Assembly (NCBI GenBank): GCA_016218975.1
Contig: JACRCO010000071.1
Span: 7,723-71,722 of the forward strand
Source: Deltaproteobacteria bacterium
GTDB lineage: Bacteria > Desulfobacterota > Deferrimicrobia > Deferrimicrobiales > Deferrimicrobiaceae
Direction of reading: 5' to 3'
Length of the DNA: 64,000 bases
Both the position numbers and the translations under genes were made by a program. The notes beneath the pieces are model-generated. The model saw nothing but the letters and a program-made list of their open reading frames with translations, was not told where the DNA came from and did no database searches. Below are positions 8,653-39,876 of the stretch, piece after piece; positions within the stretch are counted from its first letter, which is position 1, and every line of letters starts with the position of its first letter.

Positions 8653-8653
8653 C

Positions 8654-16428: not shown

Positions 16429-17078
16429 ATGCCTTCCTTCACCTGCAACAGGACCCGCGCCAGTTCCTTGCGAAGGTGGGCGAGGTTGTGGAACTGGAAG
16501 TCGATCGATGCAAGCGCCTTGAGGTAAGGCTCGAATTCCTTGCCTGCCTCCGACAGCCATGCCGAAAAATCGTCCTTTCCCACCGGCGGACGTCTCAAGG
16601 CTTCAAGGAAGTGGTAGTAGATGCTCCCGTTCGTCATCCTGAGGATGGCGGGGGCCAGGTCCAGCGGAGCATGGATGAAATCCCCGGTGTCGAAGACGAC
16701 GGTCGTGGCTTCCATGAACAGGAATTCATCGCCGTGCCTCACCCAGGGGACGTACGGCAACTCCCCGAGCCGGTCGTCTATGATGTCGAGGGTAACCGTT
16801 CTCATCTCATCCATGCCGGATGCGGCGTACGGGTCCAGGATCCCCAGCCGCTCCGCCAGTACGCGGTCGCCCAGGTACCGCTTGATCCAGACCGCGAAGT
16901 CGTTCCGGTAATCCGGATCGTCGAACGTCGGCCGGAGCGTCGTTTCGCAGAAGTGATGGTAAAGCACCCCTTCCCCGCAGACGGCGATTCGTTCCCGCAA
17001 CTCACGCATGCTCATCGCCGGGGGCAGGCCGCTCGTCCGGACGAGCAGCGCGCAATCCTTCACCTCGAAAGGGGCCAT
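16425..17078 (-). CDS. Hypothetical protein (operonic with TreT-like gene)
   Basis: ORF 16425..17105. Preferred start ATG 17078, preceded by an AAGGAGA RBS. No recognisable motifs. 4-nt overlap with the downstream GT4 gene. Confidence 0.45.
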   Translation of the reverse strand: MAPFEVKDCALLVRTSGLPPAMSMRELRERIAVCGEGVLYHHFCETTLRPTFDDPDYRNDFAVWIKRYLGDRVLAERLGILDPYAASGMDEMRTVTLDIIDDRLGELPYVPWVRHGDEFLFMEATTVVFDTGDFIHAPLDLAPAILRMTNGSIYYHFLEALRRPPVGKDDFSAWLSEAGKEFEPYLKALASIDFQFHNLAHLRKELARVLLQVKEGI

Positions 17079-17226
17079 GCCGCCTCGTCTCCTTTTTCCC
17101 GGCATTCTTCATAGAAGTAGACAGGCGATGAAACTCGCAAGTTTCAGGAAAGGACACGAATCAGCAAGGCGCGCCTCTCATCTTAGTGAGTGGAATATCG
17201 GATGGGGTGGGATAGGAACCGCCTGG

Positions 17227-19068: not shown

Positions 19069-19080
19069 AGGGCAAGGGGC

Positions 19081-21519: not shown

Positions 21520-21523
21520 CCAC

Positions 21524-25406: not shown

Positions 25407-25482
25407 TGGTGGAGGAGAAGGGATTTGAACCCTCGACCCCCACGTTGCGAACGTGGTGCTCTCCCAACTGAGCTACTCCCCC
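25407..25482 (-). tRNA. tRNA-Ala (anticodon CGC), CCA encoded
   Basis: Reverse complement reads GGGGGAGTAGCTCAGTTGGGAGAGCACCACGTTCGCAACGTGGGGGTCGAGGGTTCAAATCCCTTCTCCTCCACCA. Cloverleaf folds by hand: 7-bp acceptor stem with G3:U70 (the Ala identity element), D-arm GCTC/GAGC, anticodon loop TTCGCAA (CGC), T-loop TTCAAAT. Confidence 0.85.
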
Positions 25483-25494
25483 ACCTGAAGTGAG

Positions 25495-25525
25495 ATATTT
25501 TCCACGATTCGACGCCCGGTGTCAA
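25495..25525 (-). promoter_or_regulatory. Candidate sigma70-type promoter for tRNA-Ala
   Basis: On the minus strand: TTGACA, then a 17-nt spacer, then GAAAAT/AAATAT, ending about 10 nt upstream of tRNA G1. Confidence 0.35.
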
Positions 25526-25666
25526 AGGAAGATGCTTCAACATCCGATTGGAGACACCTTTGTATCGATCGCCCGGCAAAGAATACGTCGGCAGGTGAAC
25601 CGCATCAAAAAATTTAGGGCCACCTCAGGGAGGGGCGGGATCTTTTTACCGCGCCCCGACGATATC

Positions 25667-27883
25667 ATGTGGGAGAAGTTGCAAGCCATGGACAAGACGG
25701 CGGTCGATGAACGTTTCTCGGCAAGCGGGGCTTTCGAGGGAAATCCTTCGGAGGAACGGCACCGGGGAGGTCGCGCCGAACGCGAGAATATACTGGCCGA
25801 AGAGCGGAACTGCTGGCGGATCGCGCAGGCGAACCGCGTCGCGTTTCTCGTCGACGCCGCCGCGTACTTCGAGGCCTTCGCTTCCGCCGCGGAAGCGGCG
25901 CGGGAATCGATACTGATCCTGGCATGGGACATCGACAGCCGGGTCCGCCTGATGCGTAAAGACCATGACAGCGGTCTGCCGCCGGAACTCGGAAATTTCC
26001 TCGATGCGATCGTCTCACGCCGAAAAGGGTTGCACGCGCACATCCTCGCCTGGGATTTCAATCCCATCTACACCTTCGAGCGGGAAGCGCTGCCCGCCGT
26101 CAAACTGGAAAGACGGACCCATCCCCGGGTTCATTTCCAGATGGATGGAAACCATCCGGTCTGGGCGTCGCTGCACCAGAAAGTGGTGGTCGTGGACGAC
26201 TCCATCGCGTTCGCCGGGGGGCTCGACCTGACCCGCAGCAGGTGGGACACGCCCGAGCATCTGCCGAAAGACACGCGGCGCGTCGATCCGTCGGGTGCGG
26301 CCTACGGTCCGTTTCATGACGTTCAGATTGCCGTCGACGGGGAGGCGGCGGCTGCGCTCGGAGACCTCGTGCGCGAGCGATGGTTTCGTGCGACGGGCCG
26401 CTTGCTGCGTCCGCCGAGGAGATGGCGGCGCGATCCGTGGCCGGACAGGCTTGCGCCTGATATCGAAGACGTGCGGGTCGGAATCGCGCGTACAGAGCCC
26501 GCCTACAAGGGCTCCCAAGGGGTCCGTGAAGTGGAATCGCTTCACCTTGATGTCATAGCCGCGGCGCGGAGATCGATTTACATCGAAAGCCCTTACCTGA
26601 GTTCCGACTCCGTAGGGAGGGCGCTTATCGCGCGCCTCGGGGAGGAAAACGGCCCCGAGATCATGATCGTCCTCCCGAAGAACTCCCCGGGCAAGTTCGA
26701 GGAAAGCACGATGGACACCGCCCGTTCGAGGCTCATCCGGCGCCTGCGGGAAGCCGACACATCCGGGCGGCTGCGCATCTATTATCCCGTCACCGGGAAC
26801 CGGGAGGAGGAATGGATAAACGTCCACTCCAAGGTCACCATCGCGGACGACGATATAGTGCGGGTGGGTTCGTCGAACCTCACCAACCGGTCGATGGGAC
26901 TCGACACGGAGTGCGACCTCGCGATCGAAGCCGAAGGAAATCCGCGCCTCCGGTCAGGGATAGTGGAATTCCGGAGCCGCCTCCTCGGCGAACATCTCGG
27001 AATCGAGCCGATGAAAGTGGCCGGGGCCGTCGTGGCAAAAGGTTCGCTGATCGAGGCGGTCGAGTCGCTCCGCGGCGGTAAAAGGACTCTCGATGTGCTC
27101 GCCGGGGAGGTGCCGGAGTGGCGGGACAAACTCATCCCGGACACGTCGATCGTCGATCCCGAGCGTCCGCTCGAACCGGAAACGGTCATCCGGGATTTCG
27201 TTTCGGACGATATCCGGGGGCCCGTACGGAGCAGGCTGCTGGGATGGGCGGTCATTTTTGCGGCGGTCCTTGCGCTGGGCGGACTCTGGAAATTCACTCC
27301 GCTCGGAAGCGCTGCAACTCCCGAGACGGTCGCGGGATGGGTGGATCGGATAAACGGGCACCCTGCGGCGCCGTTCCTTGTGATCGGGGCGTTCGTCGCG
27401 GGCGGGCTGGTCGCCTTCCCCGTCACGATTCTCATCGCGGCGACGGCATTCACGTTCGGGCCGGGGGCGGGTTTCGCCTATTCCCTGGCCGGCTCTTTCC
27501 TGAGCGCGATGGCCACGTACGGAATCGGACGAATGTTTGGCGGGATCCCGTTCCGCCTCGTCGCGGGACGGCGGCTGGACAATCTGAGCCGGATGCTGCG
27601 GCGCAGGGGACTCGTGGCTGTAGCCACAGTGAGGGTCGTGCCGGTCGCTCCCTTCACGTTCATCAATCTGACGGCGGGGGCGTTGCGGATCAGGCCTCTC
27701 GATTTCGCACTGGGGACGTTGATCGGCATGGCCCCCGGGTTGTTCGCGATCACCTTTTTCGGTGAGCGGTTGTCGTACGCGGTCCGCCATCCCGGAATCG
27801 AAAGTTTCCTGGGCCTTGCTGCGCTGGTGGCGGCGCTCGTCGCCGCGGCCGAGTGGCTCCGGCGGCGTTTGCAGGACAGGTAG
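25667..27883 (+). CDS. Phospholipase D-family (two HKD motifs) enzyme fused to a C-terminal DedA/TVP38 membrane domain
   Basis: Within ORF 25490..27883. Start taken at ATG 25667 (MWEKLQAMDK). HKD motifs HQKVVVVDD and HSKVTIADD...GSSNLTNRS. The C-terminal ~200 aa is polytopic hydrophobic with DedA/SNARE-associated-like sequences (VPVAPFTFINLTAGALRIRP). Confidence 0.8.
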   Translation: MWEKLQAMDKTAVDERFSASGAFEGNPSEERHRGGRAERENILAEERNCWRIAQANRVAFLVDAAAYFEAFASAAEAARESILILAWDIDSRVRLMRKDHDSGLPPELGNFLDAIVSRRKGLHAHILAWDFNPIYTFEREALPAVKLERRTHPRVHFQMDGNHPVWASLHQKVVVVDDSIAFAGGLDLTRSRWDTPEHLPKDTRRVDPSGAAYGPFHDVQIAVDGEAAAALGDLVRERWFRATGRLLRPPRRWRRDPWPDRLAPDIEDVRVGIARTEPAYKGSQGVREVESLHLDVIAAARRSIYIESPYLSSDSVGRALIARLGEENGPEIMIVLPKNSPGKFEESTMDTARSRLIRRLREADTSGRLRIYYPVTGNREEEWINVHSKVTIADDDIVRVGSSNLTNRSMGLDTECDLAIEAEGNPRLRSGIVEFRSRLLGEHLGIEPMKVAGAVVAKGSLIEAVESLRGGKRTLDVLAGEVPEWRDKLIPDTSIVDPERPLEPETVIRDFVSDDIRGPVRSRLLGWAVIFAAVLALGGLWKFTPLGSAATPETVAGWVDRINGHPAAPFLVIGAFVAGGLVAFPVTILIAATAFTFGPGAGFAYSLAGSFLSAMATYGIGRMFGGIPFRLVAGRRLDNLSRMLRRRGLVAVATVRVVPVAPFTFINLTAGALRIRPLDFALGTLIGMAPGLFAITFFGERLSYAVRHPGIESFLGLAALVAALVAAAEWLRRRLQDR

Positions 27884-27920
27884 CGGATCCGGGCATCTGA
27901 AAAACCGGAGTGCCGGACTA

Positions 27921-28736
27921 ATGGATGAACACGGAGAAACAGGAATACGGGAACCCGAAGGACTGCTCCTGGCGGCTTCCTATAACGTCCACAGGTGCGT
28001 GGGCATGGACGGCCGGCAGGACCCCGTCCGTGTCGCCGGGGTCCTGAGGGAACTCGGGGCGGACATCGTGGGGCTGCAGGAAGTGGATCCGCGGCCGAAT
28101 CCCTCGGGGAAGCCGAGGCAGCTGGAACGGATCGCCGCGGCCGCGGGTTTCCACTACATCGCGGAAACGGCGCCCCTCCGCCATGACGGGCGCCTCGCCA
28201 ATGCGCTTCTCACCGGCCGAAGGGCGAGGGAAATACGGCGCATCGACCTGAGCCATCCCGGAAGGGAGCCGCGTGGAGCGATCGACGTTGACATCGAAAT
28301 CGACGGCGCGATCGTTCGTGTGATCGTCACCCACCTCGGCCTTCGTCCCGTGGAACGCCGGTTCCAGGTAAAACGCCTGCTGGACGTCCTTTCCCTGGAA
28401 GGAACCCACCTGACGGTCGTCATGGGAGACATCAACGAATGGCTGCCCGGCAGCCGTCCCCTGCGATGGCTTCACGGCCGCCTCGGACGGGCGCCCGCGC
28501 AGCGGACCTTTCCCTCCTTCCTGCCGCTGTTCGCGCTCGACAGGATCTGGGTATGGCCGAGGAAGGCGCTTCAGGCGGTCGAAGCCCATGCGACATCGGC
28601 CGCCCGGATCGCCTCCGATCATCTTCCTATCAAGGCGACGATCGACGTGACGACTCCCCTCACCGTGGAAAGAAGGCGGATCGCTCCGCCGCCGGAGCTG
28701 CTCGAAGAGCCGGAAACGACAAAAATCGGGGTATAG
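27921..28736 (+). CDS. Endonuclease/exonuclease/phosphatase (EEP) family hydrolase
   Basis: Within ORF 27762..28736. Start taken at ATG 27921 (MDEHGE). EEP-like motifs: SYNVHRCVG, GADIVGLQEV, VTHLGL, MGDINEW, SDHLPIKATI. Confidence 0.65.
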   Translation: MDEHGETGIREPEGLLLAASYNVHRCVGMDGRQDPVRVAGVLRELGADIVGLQEVDPRPNPSGKPRQLERIAAAAGFHYIAETAPLRHDGRLANALLTGRRAREIRRIDLSHPGREPRGAIDVDIEIDGAIVRVIVTHLGLRPVERRFQVKRLLDVLSLEGTHLTVVMGDINEWLPGSRPLRWLHGRLGRAPAQRTFPSFLPLFALDRIWVWPRKALQAVEAHATSAARIASDHLPIKATIDVTTPLTVERRRIAPPPELLEEPETTKIGV

Positions 28737-28808: not shown

Positions 28809-28837
28809 TTGACACCATTTTTCGCAAACCGTAAAAT
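28809..28837 (+). promoter_or_regulatory. Near-consensus sigma70 promoter upstream of the XRE-cupin regulator
   Basis: TTGACA (28809-28814), a 17-nt spacer, then TAAAAT (28832-28837). The XRE gene ATG is at 28877. Confidence 0.6.
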
Positions 28838-28876
28838 TCGGATAGATTACTAAACGGGGGGTTTAAAAAAACCGTA

Positions 28877-29413
28877 TTGATAGACATCGGGGCAAGGATC
28901 AAGCACCTGCGGCAGATCAACGGACTTGCCCAGGCCGATCTCGCGGAGCGGGCCGGCCTCACCAAGGGTGCCATCTCCCAGATCGAGCGCAACCACACGT
29001 CCCCCTCCGTCGCCAACCTCCTCGAAATCCTCTCCGCCCTCAACGAAACGCCCTCCTCGTTCTTCGCCGACGACGACGAAGAGAAGGTGATCTTCCGGAA
29101 GACGGAAGCCCTTCCATCCGATGTGACGGGATACGTGTCCTTCGAGACGCTGATCCCCAAGAGCCGCTATCGTTCCATGGTCGCCTACCGGGCGGAGATC
29201 AAGCCCGGCAAGGAGACGCCGCTCGAACCCGCGCAGGAAGGGGAGAACTACGTGTTCGTCCTTTCCGGCCGGCTCGGGTTGCGGCTGGGGAGCGCCGCGT
29301 ACGCGGCGCGCAAAGGCGAAAGCCTCTACTTCTACGCCGAGAAGGAGTTCGCCTTCAGCAACAAGGGAAAGGCTCCCGTCGATTTCCTCTGGGTGAAAAC
29401 CAGTGGGCGATAA
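28877..29413 (+). CDS. XRE-family HTH transcriptional regulator with C-terminal cupin domain
   Basis: HTH: LRQINGLAQADLAERAGLTKGAISQIERN. C-terminal cupin-like beta-barrel (GENYVFVLSGRLGLRLG...GESLYF). Confidence 0.8.
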   Translation: MIDIGARIKHLRQINGLAQADLAERAGLTKGAISQIERNHTSPSVANLLEILSALNETPSSFFADDDEEKVIFRKTEALPSDVTGYVSFETLIPKSRYRSMVAYRAEIKPGKETPLEPAQEGENYVFVLSGRLGLRLGSAAYAARKGESLYFYAEKEFAFSNKGKAPVDFLWVKTSGR

Positions 29414-29488
29414 TTCGGCCCGTGACGAATGCGGGCCCGGGCGGAACCCGGCAACCCAACATGCCGACGAAGAGACGACGAGGAGGAC

Positions 29489-30814
29489 ATGGACCCGAAT
29501 CTCGGTGACGATTCCGTTCCGCTGAGGATCGGCCCGGACGCGGGCGGCGGGAACCCGGTGGGGTTGCCGTGGCCGCAAATCACCCGGGAACAGTGGAACG
29601 ACTATCGCTGGCAGCTTTCCCACCGCATCACATCCGTCCGCGAACTGGCGGGGCTGCGATATTTCTCCCCGGAAGATGCCGCCGTCCTCAACCGCGTGAA
29701 CGACATCTACCACCTGGGAATAACTCCCTACTACCTCTCGCTCATCCGGTTCGACGATCCCGCCGACCCGATCGCCATGCAGGCGATCCCGCGCACCGAG
29801 GAATATTTCGGGATGTCGGTCGGCGAAGACGATCCGCTGGACGAGGAGAAGGACAGCCCCGTTCCCGGCCTCACTCACCGCTATCCCGACCGCTGCCTGA
29901 TGGTGGTGACGAACTTCTGCTCGATGTACTGCCGCCACTGCACGCGGAAGCGGATCTGGGCGCTGGGCGAAGGAGCGAAGACGGAATTCGAGCTCAACAA
30001 GATGTTCTCCTACATCAGGCGGCACGAGGAGATCCGTGACGTCATCATCTCCGGCGGCGATCCCCTCACGCTGCCGACGCAGCGGCTGGAATTCATACTG
30101 AAAGGCCTGCGGAAGATCCCGCACGTGGAGATCGTCCGGATCGGCACCCGTGTGCCGGTCGTCCTTCCCATGCGGATCGACGACGAGCTTTGCGCTTTGC
30201 TTTCGAAGTACGGCCCGATCTGGGTGAACACCCAGTTCAACCATCCCCGCGAGGTCACCGAGGAGGCGCGGCGCGCGTGCGACCGGCTCCTTCATGCCGG
30301 CGTGCCCGTGAACAACCAGACGGTGCTCCTCAAAGGGGTCAACGACCATCCGGAGATCCTGCGCAAGCTGAACACGCAGCTCCTCCGTGCGAAGGTGCGC
30401 CCCTACTACCTGTTCCAATGCGACCAGGTGCGGGGGCTGGAGCATTTCCGCACGCGGCTCTCCAAGGGCGTGGAGATCATGGAGGCGCTCCGGGGCCACA
30501 CGTCGGGGCTGGCAATCCCTACATTCGTGGTGGACGTCCCCGGCGGCGGCGGGAAGATACCCCTGATGCCCAACTACATCCTCTCGATGGGAGAGCGAAG
30601 GACGATCCTGCGCAACTACGAGGGGATAATCGTCAGTTACGAAGAGCCGCACGAAGACGGACGGCCGTCGGCGCAGCCGGAGACGGAGGGGATTCCGCCC
30701 CGCCAGGACGTGTACCGGCTGATGACCGGAGAGGTAAAGGCGCTCATCCCGGCGGGAAACGAGCGGATGGCCCGGAGAAGGAGACGGTGCGAGTCGGCCT
30801 CTCCTACAACGTAA
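29489..30814 (+). CDS. kamA: Lysine 2,3-aminomutase (radical SAM, KamA family)
   Basis: Within ORF 29429..30814. Start at ATG 29489, after an AGGAGGA RBS. Radical-SAM cluster CSMYCRHCTRKR. KamA-family N-terminus (WNDYRWQLSHRI) and PLP-binding region. Confidence 0.85.
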   Translation: MDPNLGDDSVPLRIGPDAGGGNPVGLPWPQITREQWNDYRWQLSHRITSVRELAGLRYFSPEDAAVLNRVNDIYHLGITPYYLSLIRFDDPADPIAMQAIPRTEEYFGMSVGEDDPLDEEKDSPVPGLTHRYPDRCLMVVTNFCSMYCRHCTRKRIWALGEGAKTEFELNKMFSYIRRHEEIRDVIISGGDPLTLPTQRLEFILKGLRKIPHVEIVRIGTRVPVVLPMRIDDELCALLSKYGPIWVNTQFNHPREVTEEARRACDRLLHAGVPVNNQTVLLKGVNDHPEILRKLNTQLLRAKVRPYYLFQCDQVRGLEHFRTRLSKGVEIMEALRGHTSGLAIPTFVVDVPGGGGKIPLMPNYILSMGERRTILRNYEGIIVSYEEPHEDGRPSAQPETEGIPPRQDVYRLMTGEVKALIPAGNERMARRRRRCESASPTT

Positions 30815-31779
30815 AACCGGCCCATTCTCCCGCTCACCTCCCTGAAGACGCCTTCGAGGAGTACGACTCCGAGGCGACGGTGGGGCACATCTGCAATGCC
30901 CTTTCCGCCCTCGGCCACGATGTGGTCCGGCTCGGCGCCGGCCCCGGCATCATAGACGCCATCAGGAAACACAAACCCGAAATAGTCTTCAACATAGCGG
31001 AAGGCGAAGGCGGGCGGTGCCGCGAGGCGCACGTGCCGGCCCTCCTGGAAATGCTTGGCATCCCTTATGTCGGATCGGATCCGCTGACGCTCTGCGTCAC
31101 TCTCGACAAGCCTGTCGCCAAGCGGCTGGTGGCGGCGGGAGGATTCCACACCCCGGGGTTCCGCACCTTCAGTTCGTCCGCCGAATTTTCCGCTCACGGC
31201 CTCTCCTTCCCCGTCATCGTGAAGCCCGCCTTCGAGGGGTCGAGCAAGGGGGTGCGGCTCACATCCCGGGCCGCCGAGCCATCGCAGGCGCGCGACATGG
31301 TGAAGTTCGTCACGGAAACGTATCGCCAGGAGGCCATCGTCGAGGAATTCGTAGCGGGCCCCGAGGTCACCGTGGGACTGCTGGGCAACGAAAGTCCGCG
31401 GGTGGTCGGCGTCATGGAGATCGCACCGAAGAAGGTGCGGCCGGAGGACTTCGTCTATTCCCTCGAAGTCAAGCGCGACTGGGAAAACCAGGTCGAATAC
31501 CGATGCCCGCCGCCTTTCGCGAAAGAGACGATCGCCGAAATCGAGCGGTGCGCGTGGGGGATCTACCGGCTTCTCGGTTGCAGGGATTTCTCCCGGATCG
31601 ATTTCCGGATCGACGGCGGAGGCGTTCCCCAGTTCATCGAATGCAATCCCCTTCCCGGCCTCTCCCCCGGCTACGGCGACCTGCCGATCATGGCCGAAAG
31701 GATGGGCCTGTCCTATCTTTCCCTGATCTCGGAGATCCTTTCGCACGCTCTCTCGCGCCGGGAGGTGGGGGGACGGTGA
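30787..31779 (+). CDS. D-Ala-D-Ala-ligase-like ATP-grasp ligase 1 (L-amino-acid-ligase type)
   Basis: In frame with ORF 30190..31779; the real start is inferred at GTG 30787, after a GGAGAAGGAGA RBS, overlapping the KamA 3' end. Ddl-like N-domain (LLEMLGIPYVGSDPLTLCVTLDKPVAKRL) and ATP-grasp C-domain (FPVIVKPAFEGSSKGV...IDFRIDGGGVPQFIECNPLPGLS). Confidence 0.7.
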   Translation: MRVGLSYNVKPAHSPAHLPEDAFEEYDSEATVGHICNALSALGHDVVRLGAGPGIIDAIRKHKPEIVFNIAEGEGGRCREAHVPALLEMLGIPYVGSDPLTLCVTLDKPVAKRLVAAGGFHTPGFRTFSSSAEFSAHGLSFPVIVKPAFEGSSKGVRLTSRAAEPSQARDMVKFVTETYRQEAIVEEFVAGPEVTVGLLGNESPRVVGVMEIAPKKVRPEDFVYSLEVKRDWENQVEYRCPPPFAKETIAEIERCAWGIYRLLGCRDFSRIDFRIDGGGVPQFIECNPLPGLSPGYGDLPIMAERMGLSYLSLISEILSHALSRREVGGR

Positions 31780-32807
31780 CCATCGGGGGTATCGCCGGTA
31801 AGAAGATCGCGGTGCTCTACACTTCCGTGGAGGAGTCGCTTGCGGGGGTGGAGGACCCCGGGATGCGCGAGAGCATGGACCTGGCGGTAAGCGCCCGGTC
31901 GGTCACGGATGCCCTGGCGAACCTGGGAGCCGACGCGCGGTATTTTTCGTTCGGCAGGGACATCGTGGCGCTCGCGGAATCGTTCCGCTCCTTCGGTGCG
32001 GAAGCGGTGTTCAACCTGAGCGAATGCCCCCTGAACTCGGCGCAGAAGGAGCCCCACGGCGCTGCGTTCCTGGAATTGCTGAAGATCCCCTACACGGGAA
32101 ACGGCCCGATGGCCCTGGCGGTCTGCAACAACAAGGCGCTCACCAAGAGAATCCTATCCTCGCACGGAATCGCGACGCCGGAGTTCCGCCTCTTCTCCGC
32201 CCCTCCCCGTCGCCATTCGGGACTTGTCTTCCCCGTCATCGTGAAGCCGTCGAAGGAGGACGGATCGGCGGGGATCACCGAGGAGAGCGTCGTCGACGAC
32301 GAGGCGGGGCTCAAAAAGAGGGTGGCGCACGTCGTGGAGAAGTACAACCAGGAGGCGCTCGTCGAAGAGTACGTGGGCGGAAGGGAATTCAACGTGGCCG
32401 TGCTGGGCAACGGCACGGCAGTGGATCCCCATCGCGCGTTCCCCCCTGCGGAGCTCGTATACCGGAACCGCAAGTGGCGGATCTGCTCTTTCGAATCGAA
32501 GTGGGACCCGAACCATCCGTCCTTCGCCGAAATCGCTCCCCGGTGCCCTGCGGACGTTTCGGACGGATTGAGGTCGCGCCTTGCGGAAATTACGATGGAA
32601 TGCGCGCGGATCTTCGGGCTGTGCGGCTATTCCCGCGTGGACTACCGCACCAGCCGTAGCGGGAAACTTTTCGTCCTCGAAGTGAATCCGAATCCCGATA
32701 TCTCCCCCGACGCCGGGCTTGCGCGCGCCGCCCGCGCAGAGGGGCTTGCTTATGAAGCGCTGGTCGCGGAAATCCTGCGGCTGGGGCTGGCGCGGGGGGC
32801 GCGATGA
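31776..32807 (+). CDS. D-Ala-D-Ala-ligase-like ATP-grasp ligase 2
   Basis: In frame with ORF 31017..32807. Start inferred at GTG 31776 (GTGA overlap with the upstream stop, GGAGGTGGGG RBS). Motifs LELLKIPYTGNGPMALAVCNNKALTKRIL, FPVIVKPSKEDGSAGI, VDYRTSRSGKLFVLEVNPNPDIS. Confidence 0.7.
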   Translation: MTIGGIAGKKIAVLYTSVEESLAGVEDPGMRESMDLAVSARSVTDALANLGADARYFSFGRDIVALAESFRSFGAEAVFNLSECPLNSAQKEPHGAAFLELLKIPYTGNGPMALAVCNNKALTKRILSSHGIATPEFRLFSAPPRRHSGLVFPVIVKPSKEDGSAGITEESVVDDEAGLKKRVAHVVEKYNQEALVEEYVGGREFNVAVLGNGTAVDPHRAFPPAELVYRNRKWRICSFESKWDPNHPSFAEIAPRCPADVSDGLRSRLAEITMECARIFGLCGYSRVDYRTSRSGKLFVLEVNPNPDISPDAGLARAARAEGLAYEALVAEILRLGLARGAR

Positions 32808-33304
32808 TCAGCCGGAAGGAAACGCAGGCCATGATACGCCCGATCGAAGAGAAGGACCGCGATGCGGTCCGAAATCTCATCGACGGCACCGGGGCATTCA
32901 AGCCGTTCGAGGTCGACGTGGCGATGGAGCTGGTCGACATCGCTCTCACCAGCCCCGATCAGGAGGACTACCATCCCTTCGTTCTGGAAGAGGAGGACGG
33001 GACGGTCGCCGCGTACGCCTGTTTCGGGAAGAACCCGATGACGAAGTTTACCTTCGATCTCTACTGGCTGGCCACCCGCGCCGACAGGATGGGAAAGGGA
33101 TACGGCCGGAAGATCGTCTCCTTCGTCGAGGAAGAGGTACGGAAACGCGGCGGGAAGCTCCTGGTGATCGAAACGTCCTCGAAGGAGAGCTACGGAACGA
33201 CGCGCGAGTTCTACATCCGCATCGGCTGCACCCTCGCAGCCCAACTTCCCGATTACTACGACGACGGCGACGACAAACTCATCTACCTGAAACGCATCAC
33301 GTAG
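32804..33304 (+). CDS. GNAT-family N-acetyltransferase
   Basis: ATGA overlap with the upstream stop. GNAT acetyl-CoA motif RMGKGYGRKIVSFVEEEVRKRGGKLLVIETS. Confidence 0.75.
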   Translation: MISRKETQAMIRPIEEKDRDAVRNLIDGTGAFKPFEVDVAMELVDIALTSPDQEDYHPFVLEEEDGTVAAYACFGKNPMTKFTFDLYWLATRADRMGKGYGRKIVSFVEEEVRKRGGKLLVIETSSKESYGTTREFYIRIGCTLAAQLPDYYDDGDDKLIYLKRIT

Positions 33305-33316: not shown

Positions 33317-33610
33317 TCACAAGGAATCTTCGTCGAACGGAATCCCGCAGCCTGGACAGTGGTGGAGAGTATCGTCCGCGAAAACGAATTTCAGCCCCAG
33401 CGTTTTCCCGCACTTCGGACACTTGATCCCCAAGTACACCAGCACGATCCCGGCGCCGAACACCGTGCCTGCTCCGATCGCCAGGACATCGAACAACGAT
33501 TTCGGTAAATATTTTTCGACGAACGCCAGCATGGTCAGCGCAGCAAAACTTATTCCGGCGATCAGCAGATATGTTTTTTTCTTTTTATTCAATACATCCC
33601 TTGGTTTCAT
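33317..33610 (-). CDS. Small membrane protein with C-terminal zinc ribbon
   Basis: 97 aa with two hydrophobic helices, then CPKCGK...HHCPGCG. Confidence 0.45.
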   Translation of the reverse strand: MKPRDVLNKKKKTYLLIAGISFAALTMLAFVEKYLPKSLFDVLAIGAGTVFGAGIVLVYLGIKCPKCGKTLGLKFVFADDTLHHCPGCGIPFDEDSL

Positions 33611-33898: not shown

Positions 33899-36535
33899 AT
33901 GGGGTGGAATCGCTTATCAAGCCTGAGGGTACGCCTCATTGCGATCTGTTTCCTTGTCGTCGTGCCCGCGTTCGGCGTGACTTATTTCACGTTCAAGCAT
34001 GAACGGAAGCACATGCTCGGCGAGTTGAAGACCAACGCCGTACGAAACGCCAACCTGGTGGCCGCCGACGAGAACCGGAAGATCGAAGAGGCCCGCAATT
34101 TCCTCGTTACGCTGTCCCGGTCTCCCGCCGTCCGTTCTCCCGAATCCAGGTCCTGCAGCGATGCGATGGCCGAACTCCTCAAGCGTTATCCGCAGTACAG
34201 AAACATCGGCATCGCCGATCCCGCCGGAAACGTCGTCTGCAGCGCCGTCCCTCCTCCCGGCCCCGTCAACGTTTCGGACCGGGAATACTTCCGCCGCGCG
34301 ATGGAGACTCGCGAGTTCTCCGTGTGCGTCTATCAGGTGGGGCGGATCTCCAATCGTCCGGGAATCATGACCGCTTACAAGTTGCCGGATGCGAACGACC
34401 GCTTGCGCGGAGTCGTTTTCGCCGCTCTCGACACGGAGGAGTTCGGGCAAATCGGGAGGGATGCAGGCGAGAGCCTTCCGAACGGCGCGGCGCTCACGAA
34501 GATCGACGCATCGGGCGCCATCCTAGGCAGATACCCGACGGAAGCGGGACTGGTCGGGAAGGCATTCCCCGACATGGACGCCGTGCGGCCTTTGCTGGCA
34601 AAGGGCGGAGGACTCGCAGCCGGAAAAAGCGGCGGCGGAACGCCTTTCCTGTTCGCGGTGGCGAAAGTGCCGAACACCTTGATCGGCAGGGATGTTTTCG
34701 CGGTCGTCGGCATTCCGGAAAGCGTCATCTTCGCGGAACTGGACACGCATACCCGGAGAGACATGGCCGTCCTTGGGTCGGGAATCGCAGCCGCGCTGTT
34801 CCTGGTGTGGCTCTCCAGCGGATATTTCGTCGTGCGTCCGGTGCAGGCACTGCTTCGGGCGACGCACCGCGTTGCGGAGGAGGATGCGGAAATACGGATC
34901 GGGCCGCCGTACGACAAGGGAGAGCTCGGCGAGCTTGCGAAGGGCTTCGACCGGATGACCGCCGCGATCGTGGGGAGGCGGGCCGAGCGGGAACGTGCGC
35001 GGGAAGCGCTGATGCTCTCCGAAAATAACTACCGGTCGATCGTCAGGAATTCCCCCCTTGGAATCTACAGGGTTACACCGGGAGGAAAGTTCCTGATGGT
35101 AAACCCCGCGCTGGTCGAAATGCTCGGGTACGAATCCGAGGGAGAGCTCCTGAACGCGAACATGGACAGGGACATCTACGTCAAGGCGGACGAACGGCAG
35201 GGCATCCTGAAAAAATACGCCGGCAGGAACCAGGCATCCTCCCTTGTGCTCAAGCTGGATTGGAATCGGAAGGACGGCGCCATCCTGCACGTGCGCGCCA
35301 GCGGAACCGCAGTCAGGGACGAGAACGGCGCCATAGACTATTACGAGGTGTTCGTCGAGGATGAAACGGAGCGCCAGGCCCTGGAAAGAAAATTCCTTCA
35401 CTCCCAGAGGATGGAAGCGGTCGGAAGGTTGGCCGGTGGCGTGGCGCATGATTTCAATAATCTCCTGAGCGTGATTCTCGGATACGGGGAGATCCTGCTT
35501 GACAGGTCGAAGAATGACAGCGACGAGCGCTCGAAACTCGAGGAGATCAAGAGGTCGGCGGGACGGGCCGCGGACCTCACCCGCCAGCTCCTCGCATTCA
35601 GCCGCAAGCAGGTGTTCGAACTGAAGGTGGTGGACCTGAACGACGTCGTTACCGATGCCCGAAAAATGTTCCAGCGCCTGATCGGAGAAGATATAGAGCT
35701 CACGCTGAACCTATCCTCCGACATCGGGTTCGTGAAGATCGACCCGGGACAGTTCGAGCAGGTCATCATGAACCTCGTCGTCAACGCACGGGACGCGATG
35801 CCCCGGGGCGGCAAGCTGGCCATCGAGACGCACCGGGCGGAATTCGCCGAACCCCAGGCCTACCTGAACGGGGAAGTCAACATGCCGCCCGGGTCCTACG
35901 TCCGGGTTTCCGTCACTGATACCGGCTGCGGGATGGACGAAGAAACCCTGAAGCGCATCTTCGACCCGTTTTTCACCACGAAGGAAGCGGGCAAGGGAAC
36001 GGGGCTGGGGCTGTCCACCAGCTACGGGATCGTCAAGCAGAGCGGAGGATTCATCTGGGCGTCCAGCAGGCCGGGAAAAGGGACGTCGATCCGGATCTTC
36101 CTGCCCCGGATCGAGGAAAAAACGGACGCCGCCGCGATACGCGCGGCCGCCGCGCCTCCCGCCCGGGGATCCGAGACGATCCTCGTCGCGGAGGATGATG
36201 CGGCCGTCAGGAACGTGATCCGGGAGTTTCTCGAATCGTACGGCTACAAGGTACTGACCGCCGGAAGCCCGTTCGAGGCCCTGCGCGTAGCGGGCGCGCA
36301 CAACGGGTTGATCCAACTGCTCGTCACGGACGTCGTCATGCCGGGAGAAAGCGGAGTTCAGCTCGCGGACCGCATCACCCGCGCCTGGCCGCAGGAAAAG
36401 GTGCTCTTCATATCCGGGTATTCCGCCGATGCCATATCGGTACACGGGGTGCTCAAGGAAGGGATCTTTTTCCTTCCGAAACCATTCACGAAAGAGGTGC
36501 TGGCGAAAAAAGTGCGCGAAGTCCTCGACTCCTGA
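33899..36535 (+). CDS. Hybrid sensor histidine kinase (Cache-like periplasmic sensor, HAMP, PAS, HisKA, HATPase, REC)
   Basis: TM1 near the N-terminus, a periplasmic ~270-aa domain, TM2 ([15 protein letters not shown]), HAMP. PAS ([35 protein letters not shown]). H-box ([17 protein letters not shown]). N, G1 and G2 boxes ([23 protein letters not shown]). C-terminal receiver ([12 protein letters not shown]...DVVMP). Confidence 0.85.
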
Positions 36536-36620
36536 GGCCGGAACCCGGTCTTGCACGCCGACGTATGGCCGGTTCCAGTATTATGGCAGCCTCCATGGAG
36601 CAAGGTGTCCGCGCCCCCGA

Positions 36621-39600
36621 TCACACCTCCACCGCCTCGCCGGTTTCGACGTACCATATGAATGCGCGGGCCGGGACGCGCCATGCCTCGGCGACGATCG
36701 ACGAATAGCGGCGCACCTGCCTGATGTAATCCTCCTCCGAATCCTTCTCCCGCCGGCCCGTCTTATAGTCGACAACCCAGTGTTCCGCGCCCGTTTTTTC
36801 CGCATTTCCCGGACGCACCGGCATCCTGACGATCAGGTCCGCCCGTTCCTCGTTCGACATCCCGCCGCTGCATGCCAGCAGCGGAACTTCCGTGCCGACG
36901 AGGGACATTTCGCGAATCTCCTTGAAGAACGCGCTTGCCGCGATCTTCCTGCATATGACGATCCAGCGGGCTTCCTCGCCTTCACCCCAGGAGACGGCCG
37001 GCGGCAGCGGCTCTCGCGGAGGCCATGGCGAGCCGGCCGGCGGAAACGCTTCCAATGCCATATGCACCTTCTCGCCGAACCGCTTCCCTTTCTCGCGGTC
37101 GTGGTACTCCTTCAGGCTCAACGGCTCGGGAAGGGGGGGAATCGGCTCCGGGGGCGGGGTCGGCCACTCCCTGACGAACGACAGGTCGAACGTGACGGAT
37201 GGAGGGGACGGCTCCACCGCGGGCGACTCCGAAACGGCGACGTCGAGCATCTCTCCTCCGCCGGGAAAGAGGCGGCGCGTTCCGGAGATCCCTGTAACGG
37301 CGCACTTCCCCGGTCCGCCGTCCGATGCGCATGCAAGCCCTTGCCGGAGAGCATCCCACTGGATCGATCCTTTCCCCTTCGCGCCCTTCACAAGATAGAG
37401 CCGGTCGCGCGCGCGGGTCGCGGCAACGTAGAACAGCCGGACCTCCTCCGCATTCTGCTTCGCCTGTTCCCACTCCTCGAAAGTCACCATCCGCTCGCCC
37501 AGCCGGATCCGGCGGAAGGCGGAATAAGTCCTGAATCCGGGAAAGATCACCGCTGATAGCTTGCGGCGCCGGTCCACACGCAGCCCTTCCACCCTCTTCC
37601 TGCCTCCCCTCGAAAGGTTTGCGAGGATCACGATGGGGAATTCCAGCCCCTTCGATGCGTGGATGGTCGAAACCTGAACGGCGTCCTCCCCTTCGTCGAA
37701 AGCCGGGAACTCGCTTTCCTGGCGGTCTTCCTCCGTCTTCCTCTTGAGGTCGGCGAGGAACGCCTTCACAGAACCGCCGCCGGTCCACTCGAACGCCCTT
37801 GCCATCCCCGCGGCCTTCGCCAGGTTCCGGACTATGCGATCGCCGTCGGGATGCCGCGCCGCGACGAACTCCACCCCGGTCTCCGCGTACAGTCCGGCCA
37901 GCAGGTTGGAAAGGGAGGCCCTGCCGCGCTCGGCGGAAAGGCGCCCGAGCAGCCCGAGCGCGTCGCGGACCTTTTCCCCCGGAGGAGGACCGCCATCCTC
38001 GTGAAGCGGCAGGATCTCCTCGTCACGCAGCCCGAAGAAGATGGTCTTCAGCGCGGCGTAACGCGCGGAGAGGTCGGCGGGAGCGTCGACCGCAGAGAGG
38101 ACGATCCGCAAATCCTGTATCTCCTGCCGGGAATAGAACCCCTTCCGCGGCGGCACGACGAGGGGGATACCCGCCCTTGCGAAGGCATCCCGGAAACCGG
38201 CAAGCGCCTCCCCGCCGGCGTCCGAGCGATAAAGCACGGCGATGTCGCGAAGAGACGCGGCCCGTTCGGGCGCGCCGCCCTTTCCTCCAACGGGAACGTT
38301 CCCGGCGATCCGCCGGACGAGCCCGCAGACGAATTCCGCTTCGGTCGCCTCCTCTCCAAGCGTGTACGACGTCACGGGGAAGCCGCCGCCCGGGTCCTGC
38401 CGGTTTGGTTTCACCGGGGCGTATCCGGGGGAAAAATCCTCGCCTCCGGAAAGAACCTGCCCGAACAGCCCGTTGACGGACGAGAGAAGGTCCGGCCGGC
38501 TCCGGAAGTTGCTGACAAGCGCAATGCCTTCCCCGCCCCGGGAAAGCATACTCTCACGGAAATGCGCGTAGACCTGGATGTCCGCCCGGCGGAAGCCGTA
38601 GATGGATTGTTTCGGATCGCCGACAACGAAAAGGCGCCCCGGCGCGGTGTTAGAGGAGAGGCGTTCCAGCATTTCCGCCTGGAGAGGGTCGGTGTCCTGG
38701 AATTCGTCCACGAAAACATACCGGAACCGCTCCGAGAGCGACTTCGCGACTTCCCGGCTCCCCGCAAGCAGATCGTTCGCCCGCAGAAGCAGGTCCATGA
38801 AATCGAGCCCGCTGCCTTTCGCTTTCCGGTAATGCCCGAGCGCCGCCCTTGCACGATCCACGAGAAAGCGGGCCGCCGCGTCCCCCGCGGGGGCCTCCGA
38901 AATCTCCCGCAGGAAGCGCTGCAGATTATCCCGGGCCTGCGCAAGGGTGAACCCCGGCGGCTGGGGGAAGATCTTCCTGCTTCTCGTCCTGTCAGCGCGG
39001 AACTCGAACGCCTGGACGGCCTCCGAGGCCTGTGCGGCGACGGCGGAAATGTCGCCGCCGGAAACCTCGGTCCACACTCGTTCCAGCATTCCGAGCGCGC
39101 GCGACAGCACTGGAGTCATCTCGTGCGCCGGGTCAGCGATCCCTTCGACGAATGCGCGGAACCACTCTACTGCGTCCGCGTACTCCGCCCGAGTGTATCC
39201 GAGAAAATCCGCCGCCGTTCCGAAATCGAGCTCCCCGGCCGTGAGAAGGTCCCGCTGGGAGAGACAAAGGCGGCGGATCGCCGACCAGACTGCTTCCGGC
39301 CCGGGAGGGCCGTGGAGCACACGCTCCCAGGATGGATCGATCTCCCGGCCGCCGAACTCCTCGCGCAAGAACGCGGTGAAGGCGTTGTCCCACGCGTCGG
39401 AGGCTTCCCCCTCCGCGAGCACTTCGAACTTCGGGTCGACACCCGCCTCCGCGGGGAAGGAAAGAAGGATGCGGCGGCAGAATGAATGGAAAGTGGTGAC
39501 GGAGAGGCGCCCCACACCGTCCGCCAGTTCCTCGACGCGCTCGCGCAGCGCCGCAGCGGCCTCCTCACCGCCGCCCGGAATCCTGACGAGGGAATTCCAC

Positions 39601-39875: not shown

Positions 39876-39876
39876 G

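What the first reader, a model, noticed from the sequence alone, without database searches (positions are those of the whole stretch)
28877..33304. Lysine 2,3-aminomutase + two Ddl-like ATP-grasp ligases + GNAT under an XRE-cupin regulator: candidate N-acetylated beta-lysine peptide pathway
KamA makes beta-lysine. It is translationally coupled (GTG starts overlapping upstream stops, ATGA overlap) to two paralogous D-Ala-D-Ala-ligase-type ATP-grasp enzymes (L-amino-acid-ligase class) and a GNAT. The known beta-lysine routes are ablAB, which makes N-epsilon-acetyl-beta-lysine, and EpmAB, which beta-lysylates EF-P; neither uses Ddl-like ligases. Two ligases plus an acetyltransferase predict an N-acetylated di- or tri-peptide containing beta-lysine. 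It could be an osmolyte, a siderophore-like small molecule or a modified precursor, and I cannot match it to a characterised pathway from sequence alone. A near-consensus sigma70 promoter and a dedicated cupin-type sensor-regulator sit immediately upstream.
Basis: partly seen in the sequence, partly recalled or inferred. Interest (0 to 1): 0.65.

Follow-up and report, generated by a model that had tools for sequence, protein, structure and literature searches.

The report
Conserved beta-lysine peptide-ligase gene cassette
A five-gene operon couples the enzyme that makes beta-lysine to two D-Ala-D-Ala-ligase-like amide ligases and an acetyltransferase; the same four-enzyme cassette recurs in several bacterial phyla, including a model sulfate reducer, and I found no paper on what it makes.

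Summary
Window 28877-33304 (+ strand) holds an XRE-HTH/cupin regulator, a lysine 2,3-aminomutase (KamA), two paralogous ATP-grasp ligases with a D-Ala-D-Ala-ligase (Ddl) fold (Lig1 and Lig2, 33% identical) and a small GNAT acetyltransferase. All five gene models match the NCBI annotation of the source MAG exactly.

KamA keeps the radical-SAM cysteines, the PLP lysine and the residues that bind free L-lysine. Both ligases keep the ATP, Mg and catalytic residues of E. coli DdlB, but not its D-Ala-binding residues.

The KamA-Lig1-Lig2-GNAT core is complete in 69 of 85 related loci. These come from Deferrimicrobiaceae, Dehalococcoidia, Rokubacteria, Planctomycetota, Desulfovibrionaceae (including Oleidesulfovibrio alaskensis G20, Dde_3041-3044) and Woeseia. 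Natural KamA-Lig1 and Lig1-Lig2 fusion proteins sit inside the same cassette.

The regulator differs by lineage. The sigma-70 promoter is conserved in 34 Deferrimicrobiaceae loci and is followed by a conserved palindromic leader.

No characterised pathway matched, and ten literature searches found nothing on this gene combination. The best reading is ATP-dependent assembly of a small N-acetylated beta-lysine peptide or amide, most likely a cytoplasmic solute. The product is inferred, not shown.

The parts
28809..28837 (+). Sigma-70-type promoter, TTGACA-17 nt-TAAAAT
   Evidence: It matches 11 of 12 consensus positions and is the only + strand hit in the region. The -35 TTGACA is invariant and the -10 follows TAnnnT in all 34 aligned Deferrimicrobiaceae loci.
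28840..28872 (+). Conserved leader, GGATAGATTACTAAACGGGGGGTTTAAAAAAAC. It contains an imperfect inverted repeat (TTACTAAAC / GTTTAAAAA) around a GGAGG-like core. It is the probable operator of the XRE-cupin regulator, or a 5'-UTR element.
   Evidence: It is almost invariant across 34 loci, while the -35/-10 spacer and the upstream DNA vary. Its function is inferred. No Rfam family matches it.
28877..29413 (+). XRE-family HTH + cupin transcription regulator (178 aa), with PuuR-like architecture
   Evidence: Pfam HTH_3 (3.8e-13) and Cupin_2 (5.8e-11). The best NCBIfam hit is PuuR, at 68 bits, far below the cut-off of 211. It is an exact match to MBI5576693.1. It is present next to the cassette in 38 of the 69 complete loci, all from the Deferrimicrobiaceae group.
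29489..30814 (+). Lysine 2,3-aminomutase (KamA/AblA type, 441 aa); makes beta-lysine from L-lysine
   Evidence: Pfam Radical_SAM and LAM_C. TIGR03820 scores 519.6 bits against a cut-off of 525.4; the KamA family model TIGR00238 scores 346.8 against 199.2. E = 1.9e-132 to the C. subterminale enzyme 2A5H. The CxxxCxxC motif, R134, D293, D330 and the GGGGK lysine are all aligned and conserved. It is an exact match to MBI5576694.1.
30787..31779 (+). Lig1: Ddl-fold ATP-grasp amide ligase (330 aa)
   Evidence: Pfam Dala_Dala_lig_C, 2.1e-31. It falls below every NCBIfam Ddl cut-off; the best score is 164.5 against 243. The AlphaFold2 model (pLDDT 83.9, pTM 0.86) matches Ddl structures at TM 0.75-0.81 and 20-27% identity. 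The ATP, Mg and catalytic residues are conserved. It occurs fused to KamA or to Lig2 in other genomes.
31776..32807 (+). Lig2: second Ddl-fold ATP-grasp amide ligase (343 aa), paralogue of Lig1
   Evidence: Pfam Dala_Dala_lig_C, 4.8e-25. It is 33% identical to Lig1. The catalytic residues are conserved, but the substrate-site residues differ from both DdlB and Lig1. It is an exact match to MBI5576696.1.
32804..33304 (+). GNAT N-acetyltransferase (166 aa)
   Evidence: Pfam Acetyltransf_1. It has no match to the AblB model at E <= 0.001. It matches PDB 2R7H ('putative D-alanine N-acetyltransferase of GNAT family') at E = 1.1e-32. A search seeded with the 2R7H sequence found a 99% identical protein cluster that includes Oleidesulfovibrio alaskensis G20 ABB39838.1, which is Dde_3044.

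Best explanation
This is a self-contained biosynthetic operon for a small beta-lysine-derived amide or peptide.

1. KamA converts free L-lysine to beta-lysine by radical-SAM/PLP chemistry. Sequence evidence for this step is strong.
2. Lig1 and Lig2 are two Ddl-fold ATP-grasp enzymes. Each would form one amide bond through an acyl-phosphate intermediate. KamA-Lig1 fusions point to Lig1 acting directly on beta-lysine. Lig1-Lig2 fusions point to Lig2 acting on the Lig1 product, or together with Lig1. This step order is inferred.
3. The GNAT caps a remaining free amine with an acetyl group. This is inferred, and the site is unknown.

No other gene is conserved with the cassette, so the co-substrates must be common metabolites: proteinogenic amino acids, lysine, or beta-lysine itself. 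No exporter or immunity gene travels with it either, so the product is most likely a cytoplasmic N-acetylated di- or tripeptide-like solute. It could serve as a compatible solute, a stress protectant or a nitrogen store. In some lineages its turnover would start with an accessory GNAT-deacetylase fusion.

In this organism the operon is read from one conserved sigma-70 promoter. It is probably autoregulated by the XRE-cupin protein binding the conserved palindromic leader, with a small ligand sensed by the cupin domain (inferred).
For: - **KamA substrate.** The radical-SAM motif, R134 (binds the lysine carboxylate), D293 and D330 (bind the epsilon-ammonium) and the PLP lysine are all conserved against 2A5H. 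The roles of these residues are from my knowledge of the LAM structure. The lysine 2,3-aminomutase model scores higher than the glutamate or arginine aminomutase models.
- **Ligases look active.** The equivalents of DdlB K97, K144, S151, E180, E187, K215, R255, D257, E270 and N272 are conserved in both ligase families. Lig1 has a full Ddl fold.
- **One pathway.** The core is complete in 69 of 85 loci, spanning Deferrimicrobiaceae, Dehalococcoidia/Chloroflexota, Rokubacteria, Planctomycetota, Desulfovibrionaceae and Woeseia. The gene order is permuted in Rokubacteria (KamA-GNAT-Lig1-Lig2). No other neighbour is conserved outside Deferrimicrobiaceae.
- **Fusions.** Among the 150 best Lig1 representatives there are 3 KamA-Lig1, 1 Lig1-KamA and 17 Lig1-Lig2 fusions. 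Two of these were seen in place: [KamA-Lig1]-Lig2-GNAT and KamA-[Lig1-Lig2]-GNAT.
- **Expression.** In G20, Dde_3041-3044 are expressed and change together under Cu(II) stress (PMC8836040 supplement). G20 is not believed to catabolise lysine (PMC4045070).
- **Turnover.** An accessory GNAT + histone-deacetylase-family fusion lies inside the cluster in D. mangrovi, Woeseia and L085. This fits an N-acetyl-amine moiety that is later removed.
- **Regulation.** The promoter and leader are conserved. No second conserved promoter lies before KamA.
Against: - No product has been observed, and nothing identifies the co-substrates or the acetylation site.
- The acidic residues that mark Lig1 (E25, D27, E72, E80, D98, D267) are equally conserved in tandem-ligase proteins that have no KamA nearby. 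They therefore do not indicate beta-lysine specificity.
- Most carriers come from groundwater, soil and freshwater sediment rather than saline habitats. G20 expresses the genes in ordinary medium. Both points weaken a purely osmotic role.
- The GNAT is not an AblB orthologue.
- A few loci have only KamA + Lig1 (L057, L061).
- The operator assignment is based on sequence conservation alone.
Confidence: 0.6

Rival explanations
1. [quoted passage not shown] The two Ddl-like genes would be unrelated passengers, or true cell-wall D-Ala-D-Ala ligases.
For: KamA scores almost at the AblA cut-off, 519.6 against 525.4. A GNAT is in the same operon.
Against: - The GNAT does not match the AblB model at E <= 0.001, and its closest solved relative is a different small GNAT, 2R7H.
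- The ligases are always present with KamA, across phyla, and are physically fused to KamA or to each other in some genomes.
- They fall far below all Ddl cut-offs and lack the Ddl substrate-site residues Y216, S281/L282 and H63.
Confidence: 0.04
2. It makes a secreted bioactive compound, such as a cationic beta-lysine oligomer or peptide antibiotic, or a metal-binding molecule. The GNAT would serve as self-protection or pro-drug capping, as acetyltransferases do for streptothricin.
For: - From my own knowledge: beta-lysine chains linked through the epsilon-amine occur in streptothricins, whose resistance enzymes are GNATs that acetylate the beta-amino group, and ATP-grasp ligases build several peptide antibiotics.
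- An MFS transporter lies divergently upstream in one locus (L085).
Against: - No exporter, immunity gene or tailoring gene is conserved with the cassette.
- The cassette is a compact, vertically widespread four-gene unit in many free-living anaerobes.
- It is expressed in G20 in plain medium.
Confidence: 0.12
3. The enzymes modify a macromolecule rather than make a free metabolite. Examples would be beta-lysylation of a protein (EF-P-like, or RimK-like tailing) or of a cell-envelope precursor.
For: - From my own knowledge: beta-lysine is attached to EF-P in the EpmAB system, ATP-grasp enzymes such as RimK modify proteins, and Ddl relatives work on cell-wall precursors.
- The GNAT's only NCBIfam hit is RimI, weakly, at 27.7 bits against a cut-off of 86.4.
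Against: - KamA is the full-length LAM type, not EpmB (238.8 bits against a cut-off of 369.3).
- No EpmA, Mur ligase, transferase or candidate target gene is conserved nearby.
- The ligases have the compact Ddl architecture used for small substrates.
Confidence: 0.1
4. It is a lysine catabolic (fermentation) module in which KamA carries out the first step of lysine degradation.
For: From my own knowledge, KamA starts the clostridial lysine fermentation pathway, and the B. subtilis kamA operon also contains a GNAT.
Against: - None of the downstream fermentation genes is present: no beta-lysine 5,6-aminomutase, dehydrogenase or cleavage enzyme.
- ATP-consuming ligases are anabolic.
- G20 is not believed to catabolise lysine (PMC4045070).
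Confidence: 0.03

Closest known systems
AblA/AblB pathway for N-epsilon-acetyl-beta-lysine (methanogens, green sulfur bacteria, some Bacillota)
   Same: It starts with a lysine 2,3-aminomutase of the same type and includes an acetyl-CoA-dependent GNAT in the same operon. The product is expected to be an N-acetylated beta-lysine derivative.
   Different: Two ATP-grasp ligases are obligatory members here. The GNAT is a different, shorter family that does not match the AblB model. The end product must carry up to two extra amide bonds.
NAGGN pathway (Ngg/AsnO), which makes the osmolyte N-acetylglutaminylglutamine amide; the mammalian NAAG synthetases are a similar case
   Same: The logic is the same: a GNAT acetylation combined with ATP-grasp peptide-bond formation gives a small N-acetylated peptide solute. 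This comparison is from my own knowledge.
   Different: Ngg is a single GNAT/ATP-grasp fusion of the RimK/cyanophycin-synthetase type and uses glutamine. Here the ligases are Ddl-type, there are two of them, and the building block is beta-lysine.
PylB/PylC steps of pyrrolysine biosynthesis
   Same: A radical-SAM lysine mutase is followed by an ATP-grasp ligase that joins the rearranged diamino acid to another amine (the epsilon-amine of lysine). This comparison is from my own knowledge.
   Different: PylB is a carbon-skeleton mutase, not a PLP aminomutase. PylC was not among the 60 best of 120 solved-structure matches to the Lig1 profile. There is no PylD, and here a second ligase and a GNAT follow.
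D-alanine--D-alanine ligase (Ddl) and the VanA family
   Same: Lig1 has the same three-domain fold (TM 0.75-0.81). The ATP, Mg and catalytic residues are the same in both ligases.
   Different: Identity is 20-27% (Lig1 model against solved Ddl structures). Both ligases fall below all curated cut-offs. The D-Ala-site residues are replaced: H63 becomes E, Y216 is lost or becomes W, and S281/L282 are changed. The genomic context is KamA + GNAT rather than mur/fts genes.
Tandem Lig1-like ligase + Peptidase_S58 pair in Myxococcota and Bdellovibrionota (uncharacterised sister system found here)
   Same: It belongs to the same Lig1 subfamily, with the same signature residues, and has two ligase modules working together.
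   Different: It has no KamA and no GNAT. It is paired with a DmpA/BapA-family aminopeptidase instead.

Membership tests
Lysine 2,3-aminomutase (KamA/AblA) | Radical-SAM CxxxCxxC cluster motif and the LAM_C domain | tested here: met
   The motif C-SMY-C-RH-C is present. Pfam Radical_SAM scores 8.6e-15 and LAM_C 3.9e-32.
Lysine 2,3-aminomutase (KamA/AblA) | Residues that bind free L-lysine (R134 for the carboxylate, D293 and D330 for the epsilon-ammonium) and the PLP-binding lysine in GGGGK | tested here: met
   All are aligned and identical to 2A5H. The residue roles are from my own knowledge of the LAM structure and of glutamate 2,3-aminomutase.
Lysine 2,3-aminomutase (KamA/AblA) | Score above the curated equivalog cut-off (TIGR03820) | tested here: inconclusive
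   The score is 519.6 bits against a cut-off of 525.4. The match stops at model position 367 of 417. The KamA family model TIGR00238 is passed, at 346.8 against 199.2. The C-terminal Zn-ligand cysteines of the clostridial enzyme are absent.
AblAB N-epsilon-acetyl-beta-lysine system | An AblB-type beta-lysine acetyltransferase next to the aminomutase | tested here: not met
   The GNAT's only NCBIfam hit at E <= 0.001 is RimI, at 27.7 bits against a cut-off of 86.4. No AblB model was reported.
D-alanine--D-alanine ligase (Ddl) | Score above the curated Ddl family cut-offs | tested here: not met
   Lig1 scores at best 164.5 against 243, and Lig2 132.2 against 243. Pfam finds only the C-terminal domain family.
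D-alanine--D-alanine ligase (Ddl) | D-Ala-binding residues of E. coli DdlB (E15, H63, S150, Y216, S281, L282) | tested here: not met
   H63 becomes E in both ligases. Y216 is a gap in Lig1 and W in Lig2. S150 becomes A or G in Lig2. E15 is lost in most Lig2 sequences. L282 becomes G. The DdlB sequence used was verified against 2DLN.
ATP-grasp amide ligases (catalytically competent) | ATP, Mg and phosphoryl-transfer residues (DdlB K97, K144, E180, E187, K215, R255, D257, E270, N272) | tested here: met
   All are invariant or nearly invariant in 25 Lig1 and 21 Lig2 sequences. This was confirmed on a second alignment.
L-amino-acid ligases (BacD/YwfE, RizA, BL00235 type) | Closer sequence relationship to LAL structures than to Ddl | tested here: not met
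   BL00235 (3VOT) scores E 7.8e-07, against 1e-25 for Ddl chains. With a family profile the figures are 3.6e-16 against 3.9e-41.
EpmA/EpmB EF-P beta-lysylation | An EpmB-type aminomutase together with a LysRS-like EpmA | tested here: not met
   The EpmB model scores 238.8 bits against a cut-off of 369.3. No EpmA-like gene is in the operon or conserved nearby.
PuuR-type XRE-cupin regulators | An HTH_3 plus cupin architecture, and a score above the PuuR equivalog cut-off | tested here: inconclusive
   The architecture is met. The PuuR model scores 68.4 bits against a cut-off of 211. The protein has the same architecture but is not a PuuR orthologue. Its ligand is not testable here.

The most novel reading that the evidence does not exclude
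The cassette follows a PylB/PylC-like logic and produces a previously undescribed family of isopeptide metabolites. These could be beta-lysyl-(N-epsilon)-lysine or short beta-lysine oligomers, capped by acetylation and made without ribosomes or NRPS. Such compounds would be widespread in anaerobic bacteria of at least five phyla and would serve a physiological role that is not yet recognised, such as a new class of compatible solute, a nitrogen store or a polycation buffer.
Probability: 0.2. Interest if true: 0.75.

Novelty: new variant of a known kind. Interest (0 to 1): 0.58.

Why it matters
Beta-lysine is known in bacteria and archaea in only a few settings: an acetylated osmolyte, a modification of EF-P, a fermentation intermediate, and a building block of a few antibiotics.

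This is a compact, strongly conserved four-enzyme cassette that feeds beta-lysine into two ATP-grasp ligases. It occurs in environmentally abundant but mostly uncultured anaerobes (Deferrimicrobiaceae, Dehalococcoidia, Rokubacteria, Planctomycetota). That points to a metabolite class that has been missed, and the genes are routinely mis-annotated as cell-wall 'D-alanine--D-alanine ligase'.

The same cassette is present and expressed in Oleidesulfovibrio alaskensis G20, which has an archived transposon library. Its GNAT already has a crystal structure (2R7H). The question is therefore directly testable.

Tried and rejected
- **Literature.** None found a paper on this gene combination. The Iyer et al. 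2009 'Amidoligases' survey (PMC3268129) may discuss such neighbourhoods, but it is not held.
- **Riboswitch.** An Rfam scan of the whole window found only a tRNA.
- **Glutamate or arginine 2,3-aminomutase.** Rejected on model scores and on D293/D330.
- **Reading substrate specificity from Lig1's acidic signature residues.** Rejected, because the same residues are conserved in tandem ligases that have no KamA nearby.
- **Deacetylase gene in the window.** None was found. The GNAT-deacetylase fusion is accessory and is absent from the window and from the 80 loci of the first scan.
- **Extra conserved neighbours outside Deferrimicrobiaceae.** None was found. My crude ORF caller is noisy at this GC content.
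- **Second promoter.** The XRE-KamA spacer is not conserved apart from the Shine-Dalgarno sequence.
- **Structure prediction with the diverse alignment A1.** It was rerun with a shallower alignment. The model only confirmed the Ddl fold. Coordinates are not returned, so the binding pocket could not be analysed.

Full report
**What is in the window**

Between 28809 and 33304 on the + strand there is one compact transcription unit.
- ORF listing, Pfam and NCBIfam give an XRE-HTH + cupin regulator (28877-29413) and a KamA-family radical-SAM aminomutase (29489-30814).
- Two proteins follow that hit only the C-terminal D-Ala-D-Ala-ligase ATP-grasp family: Lig1 (30787-31779) and Lig2 (31776-32807).
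- The last gene is a 166-aa GNAT (32804-33304).
The GTG of Lig1 lies 28 nt before the KamA stop. The GTG of Lig2 overlaps the Lig1 TGA as GTGA. The GNAT ATG overlaps the Lig2 TGA as ATGA.
- All five proteins, with these exact boundaries, are consecutive NCBI entries MBI5576693-MBI5576697 on a 155.7-kb contig of a 'Deltaproteobacteria bacterium' MAG. Their closest relatives are labelled Candidatus Deferrimicrobiaceae.

**The aminomutase**

- The KamA homologue matches the Clostridium subterminale lysine 2,3-aminomutase structure 2A5H at E = 1.9e-132.
- In that alignment the CxxxCxxC cluster motif is conserved. So are R134 (in CTR-), D293 (in QCD), D330 (in VVD) and the GGGGK PLP lysine.
- From established knowledge of this enzyme, R134 binds the substrate carboxylate, and D293 and D330 bind the epsilon-ammonium group. 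D293 and D330 are replaced in glutamate 2,3-aminomutase. The enzyme should therefore act on free L-lysine and make beta-lysine.
- NCBIfam agrees. The AblA-type lysine 2,3-aminomutase model scores 519.6 bits, 6 bits under its cut-off. The glutamate, arginine and EpmB models are far below theirs.
- The shortfall comes from the C-terminus. The four Zn-ligand cysteines of the clostridial enzyme are missing here.

**The two ligases**

- Lig1 and Lig2 are 33% identical to each other. They are about 20-27% identical to solved Ddl and VanA enzymes, which are their best solved relatives by sequence. Ddl scores about 1e-25, against 7.8e-07 for the L-amino-acid ligase BL00235.
- Fold comparison of the Lig1 model agrees. 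The AlphaFold2 model has pLDDT 83.9 and pTM 0.86, and matches Ddl at TM 0.75-0.81.
- I verified my copy of the E. coli DdlB sequence against 2DLN, then aligned it with 25 Lig1 and 21 Lig2 sequences from several phyla.
- The ATP, Mg and phosphoryl-transfer residues are conserved in both families: K97, K144, S151, E180, E187, K215, R255, D257, E270 and N272. Both ligases should therefore be active.
- The D-Ala-site residues are not conserved. H63 is Glu in both. Y216 is deleted in Lig1 and is Trp in Lig2. S150 is Ala or Gly in Lig2. E15 is kept in Lig1 (an EEYD motif) but lost in most Lig2 sequences. G276 is Asp in Lig2. S281 and L282 are changed.
- Both proteins score well below every curated Ddl cut-off.
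- They are Ddl-fold amide ligases with new, mutually different substrate sites. They are not cell-wall Ddl enzymes.

**The acetyltransferase**

- The GNAT does not match the AblB model.
- Its closest solved relative is 2R7H, a structural-genomics entry named 'putative D-alanine N-acetyltransferase of GNAT family' (E = 1.1e-32).
- A search seeded with the 2R7H sequence found a 99% identical protein cluster that includes Oleidesulfovibrio alaskensis G20 ABB39838.1.

**One conserved cassette**

- A scan of one genome per species with Lig1 returned 80 loci. Context look-ups added more.
- Of the 85 loci compared, 69 have KamA, Lig1, Lig2 and GNAT together on one strand. Another 13 are cut by contig ends. 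Three are exceptions: L021 lacks the GNAT, and L057 and L061 have only KamA + Lig1.
- The carriers are labelled Deferrimicrobiaceae or 'Deltaproteobacteria', Dehalococcoidia/Chloroflexota, Rokubacteria, Planctomycetota, Desulfovibrionaceae (D. mangrovi and O. alaskensis-like) and Woeseia. In Rokubacteria the gene order is KamA-GNAT-Lig1-Lig2.
- Outside Deferrimicrobiaceae no further neighbour is conserved. The four genes are therefore the functional unit.
- A search of 1.84 billion representative proteins gave 923 relatives at E <= 1e-30.
- Among the best 150 there are 3 KamA-Lig1 fusions, 1 Lig1-KamA fusion, 17 Lig1-Lig2 fusions and 26 Lig1-like tandems.
- Two fusions were inspected in place: [KamA-Lig1]-Lig2-GNAT (L088) and KamA-[Lig1-Lig2]-GNAT (L089). 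These fusions are the strongest evidence that Lig1 handles the KamA product and that the two ligases work together.
- The Lig1-like tandems form a sister system. In Anaeromyxobacter and a Bacteriovoracia MAG they sit next to a Peptidase_S58 (DmpA/BapA family) gene, with no KamA.
- The sister system carries the same acidic signature residues as Lig1. Those residues therefore cannot be read as beta-lysine-specific.

**Accessory gene**

- In D. mangrovi, Woeseia and locus L085 the cluster also holds a GNAT + histone-deacetylase-family fusion.
- It is absent from this window and from the first 80 loci.
- This family removes acetyl groups from lysine-like and polyamine amines (my own knowledge). 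That fits an N-acetyl-amine product that is later deacetylated.

**Regulation**

- The promoter TTGACA-17-TAAAAT (28809-28837) is the only + strand consensus hit.
- In an alignment of 34 Deferrimicrobiaceae loci the -35 is invariant and the -10 keeps TAnnnT.
- The 33 nt that follow (28840-28872) are almost invariant and contain an imperfect inverted repeat around a GGAGG core. I read this as the operator of the XRE-cupin protein, which would give autoregulation. This is an inference.
- The XRE-KamA spacer is variable apart from the Shine-Dalgarno sequence and the ATG, so no second conserved promoter is evident.
- No Rfam riboswitch is present.
- The regulator differs between lineages. It accompanies the cassette only in the Deferrimicrobiaceae group (38 of 69 complete loci).
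- The Desulfovibrio loci have a sigma-54 enhancer-binding protein instead. D. mangrovi also has a TGGCAT-N5-TTGCT promoter-like site and GGAAC-N7-GTTCC palindromes before KamA.

**Evidence from a cultured organism**

- In O. alaskensis G20 the cassette is Dde_3041-3044, with the sigma-54 regulator Dde_3040 upstream (PMC8836040 supplement).
- All four genes are expressed in standard medium and fall together (log2 change -1.3 to -2.7) under Cu(II) stress.
- G20 is stated not to catabolise lysine (PMC4045070). This argues for an anabolic role.
- UniProt-derived annotation in that data set calls Dde_3042 a cell-wall D-alanine--D-alanine ligase. The residue and cut-off tests above do not support that name.

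**Most likely mechanism**

- Supported by sequence: lysine is converted to beta-lysine by KamA, and there are two catalytically competent ATP-grasp amide ligases and an acetyl-CoA-type transferase.
- Inferred: Lig1 couples beta-lysine to a common metabolite. Lig2 adds a second amide bond. The GNAT acetylates a remaining amine. The result would be a small N-acetylated beta-lysine di- or tripeptide-like compound.
- No exporter or immunity gene travels with the cassette, so the product is probably retained in the cytoplasm as a solute, protectant or nitrogen store.
- The nearest functional analogies are AblAB, the GNAT + ATP-grasp route to the osmolyte NAGGN, and the PylB/PylC pair (a radical-SAM lysine mutase followed by an ATP-grasp ligase). 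All three comparisons are from my own knowledge.
- Membership of the AblAB, Ddl, L-amino-acid-ligase and EpmAB families was tested and not met.

**Rival explanations**

- Plain N-epsilon-acetyl-beta-lysine synthesis is contradicted by the obligatory and sometimes fused ligases.
- Lysine fermentation is contradicted by the missing downstream genes and the ATP-consuming ligases.
- A secreted antibiotic or chelator, and modification of a protein or envelope precursor, cannot be excluded. They lack supporting genes in any of the loci.

**Novelty and limits**

- Ten full-text searches found no study of this gene combination. One relevant survey could not be read.
- I rate the cassette a new variant of known kinds: beta-lysine solute synthesis combined with ATP-grasp peptide ligation.
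- The product, the co-substrates, the acetylation site, the physiological role and the operator assignment are all unproven.

Noticed in passing
window 1-12000: This segment has lower GC (0.53-0.58, against 0.60-0.67 elsewhere). It holds a Ser/Thr protein kinase (2602-3819), a 555-aa ORF with no Pfam hit (3846-5513), an 830-aa Hsp70-like ATPase (6160-8652), an OmpA-domain protein (8654-9565) and two more ORFs with no Pfam hit on the - strand. It may be an acquired island of unknown function.
   Followed up: partly
window 17008-24400: Three glucan-metabolism genes lie here: alpha-amylase/CBM48 (17008-19068), GH57 + DUF3536 (19081-21519) and a protein of about 960 aa from the alpha-amylase family (ending at 24400). 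They look like a glycogen/trehalose-type cluster a few kb upstream of the beta-lysine operon. The adjacency is not conserved in related loci.
   Followed up: partly
window 29489-30814 (KamA C-terminal part): The aminomutase lacks all four Zn-ligand cysteines of the C. subterminale enzyme. C268 is His here, and the C375/C377/C380 motif is absent. This probably explains why it falls 6 bits short of the AblA cut-off.
   Followed up: partly
L086:8001-11763 (Anaeromyxobacter dehalogenans 2CP-1) and L087:8001-11256: This is a sister system. A roughly 700-aa protein made of two Lig1-like ATP-grasp modules is followed by a Peptidase_S58 (DmpA/BapA family) gene, with no KamA or GNAT. It is widespread in Myxococcota and looks uncharacterised.
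   Followed up: partly
L081:9629-11386, L085:7268-9004, L084:7505-9001: An accessory gene lies inside the cassette in D. mangrovi, an unnamed 3.7-Mb genome and Woeseia. It fuses a GNAT-like N-terminal domain to a histone-deacetylase-family domain. The pairing of an acetyltransferase-like domain with a deacetylase domain is odd.
   Followed up: partly
L081:5298-5472 and L082:5316-5423: Desulfovibrio versions of the cassette are preceded by GGAAC-N7-GTTCC palindromes. D. mangrovi also has a TGGCAT-N5-TTGCT sigma-54-type promoter. The palindromes lie just downstream of a sigma-54 activator gene and are probably its binding sites.
   Followed up: no
window 25410-25482 (-), 25490-27883 (+), 27762-28736 (+): Just upstream of the operon lie a tRNA gene, a two-PLD-motif + VTT/DedA fusion protein (797-aa ORF) and an endonuclease/exonuclease/phosphatase-family protein.
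   Followed up: no
window 33317-33610 (-) and 33899-43092: A convergent 97-aa membrane protein with a zinc-ribbon-like CxxC...CxxC motif starts 13 nt after the GNAT stop. It is followed by a dCache-HAMP-PAS hybrid histidine kinase (33899-36535, +) and an AddA/AddB-like helicase-nuclease pair (36621-43092, -). The helicase is a conserved neighbour within Deferrimicrobiaceae only.
   Followed up: no
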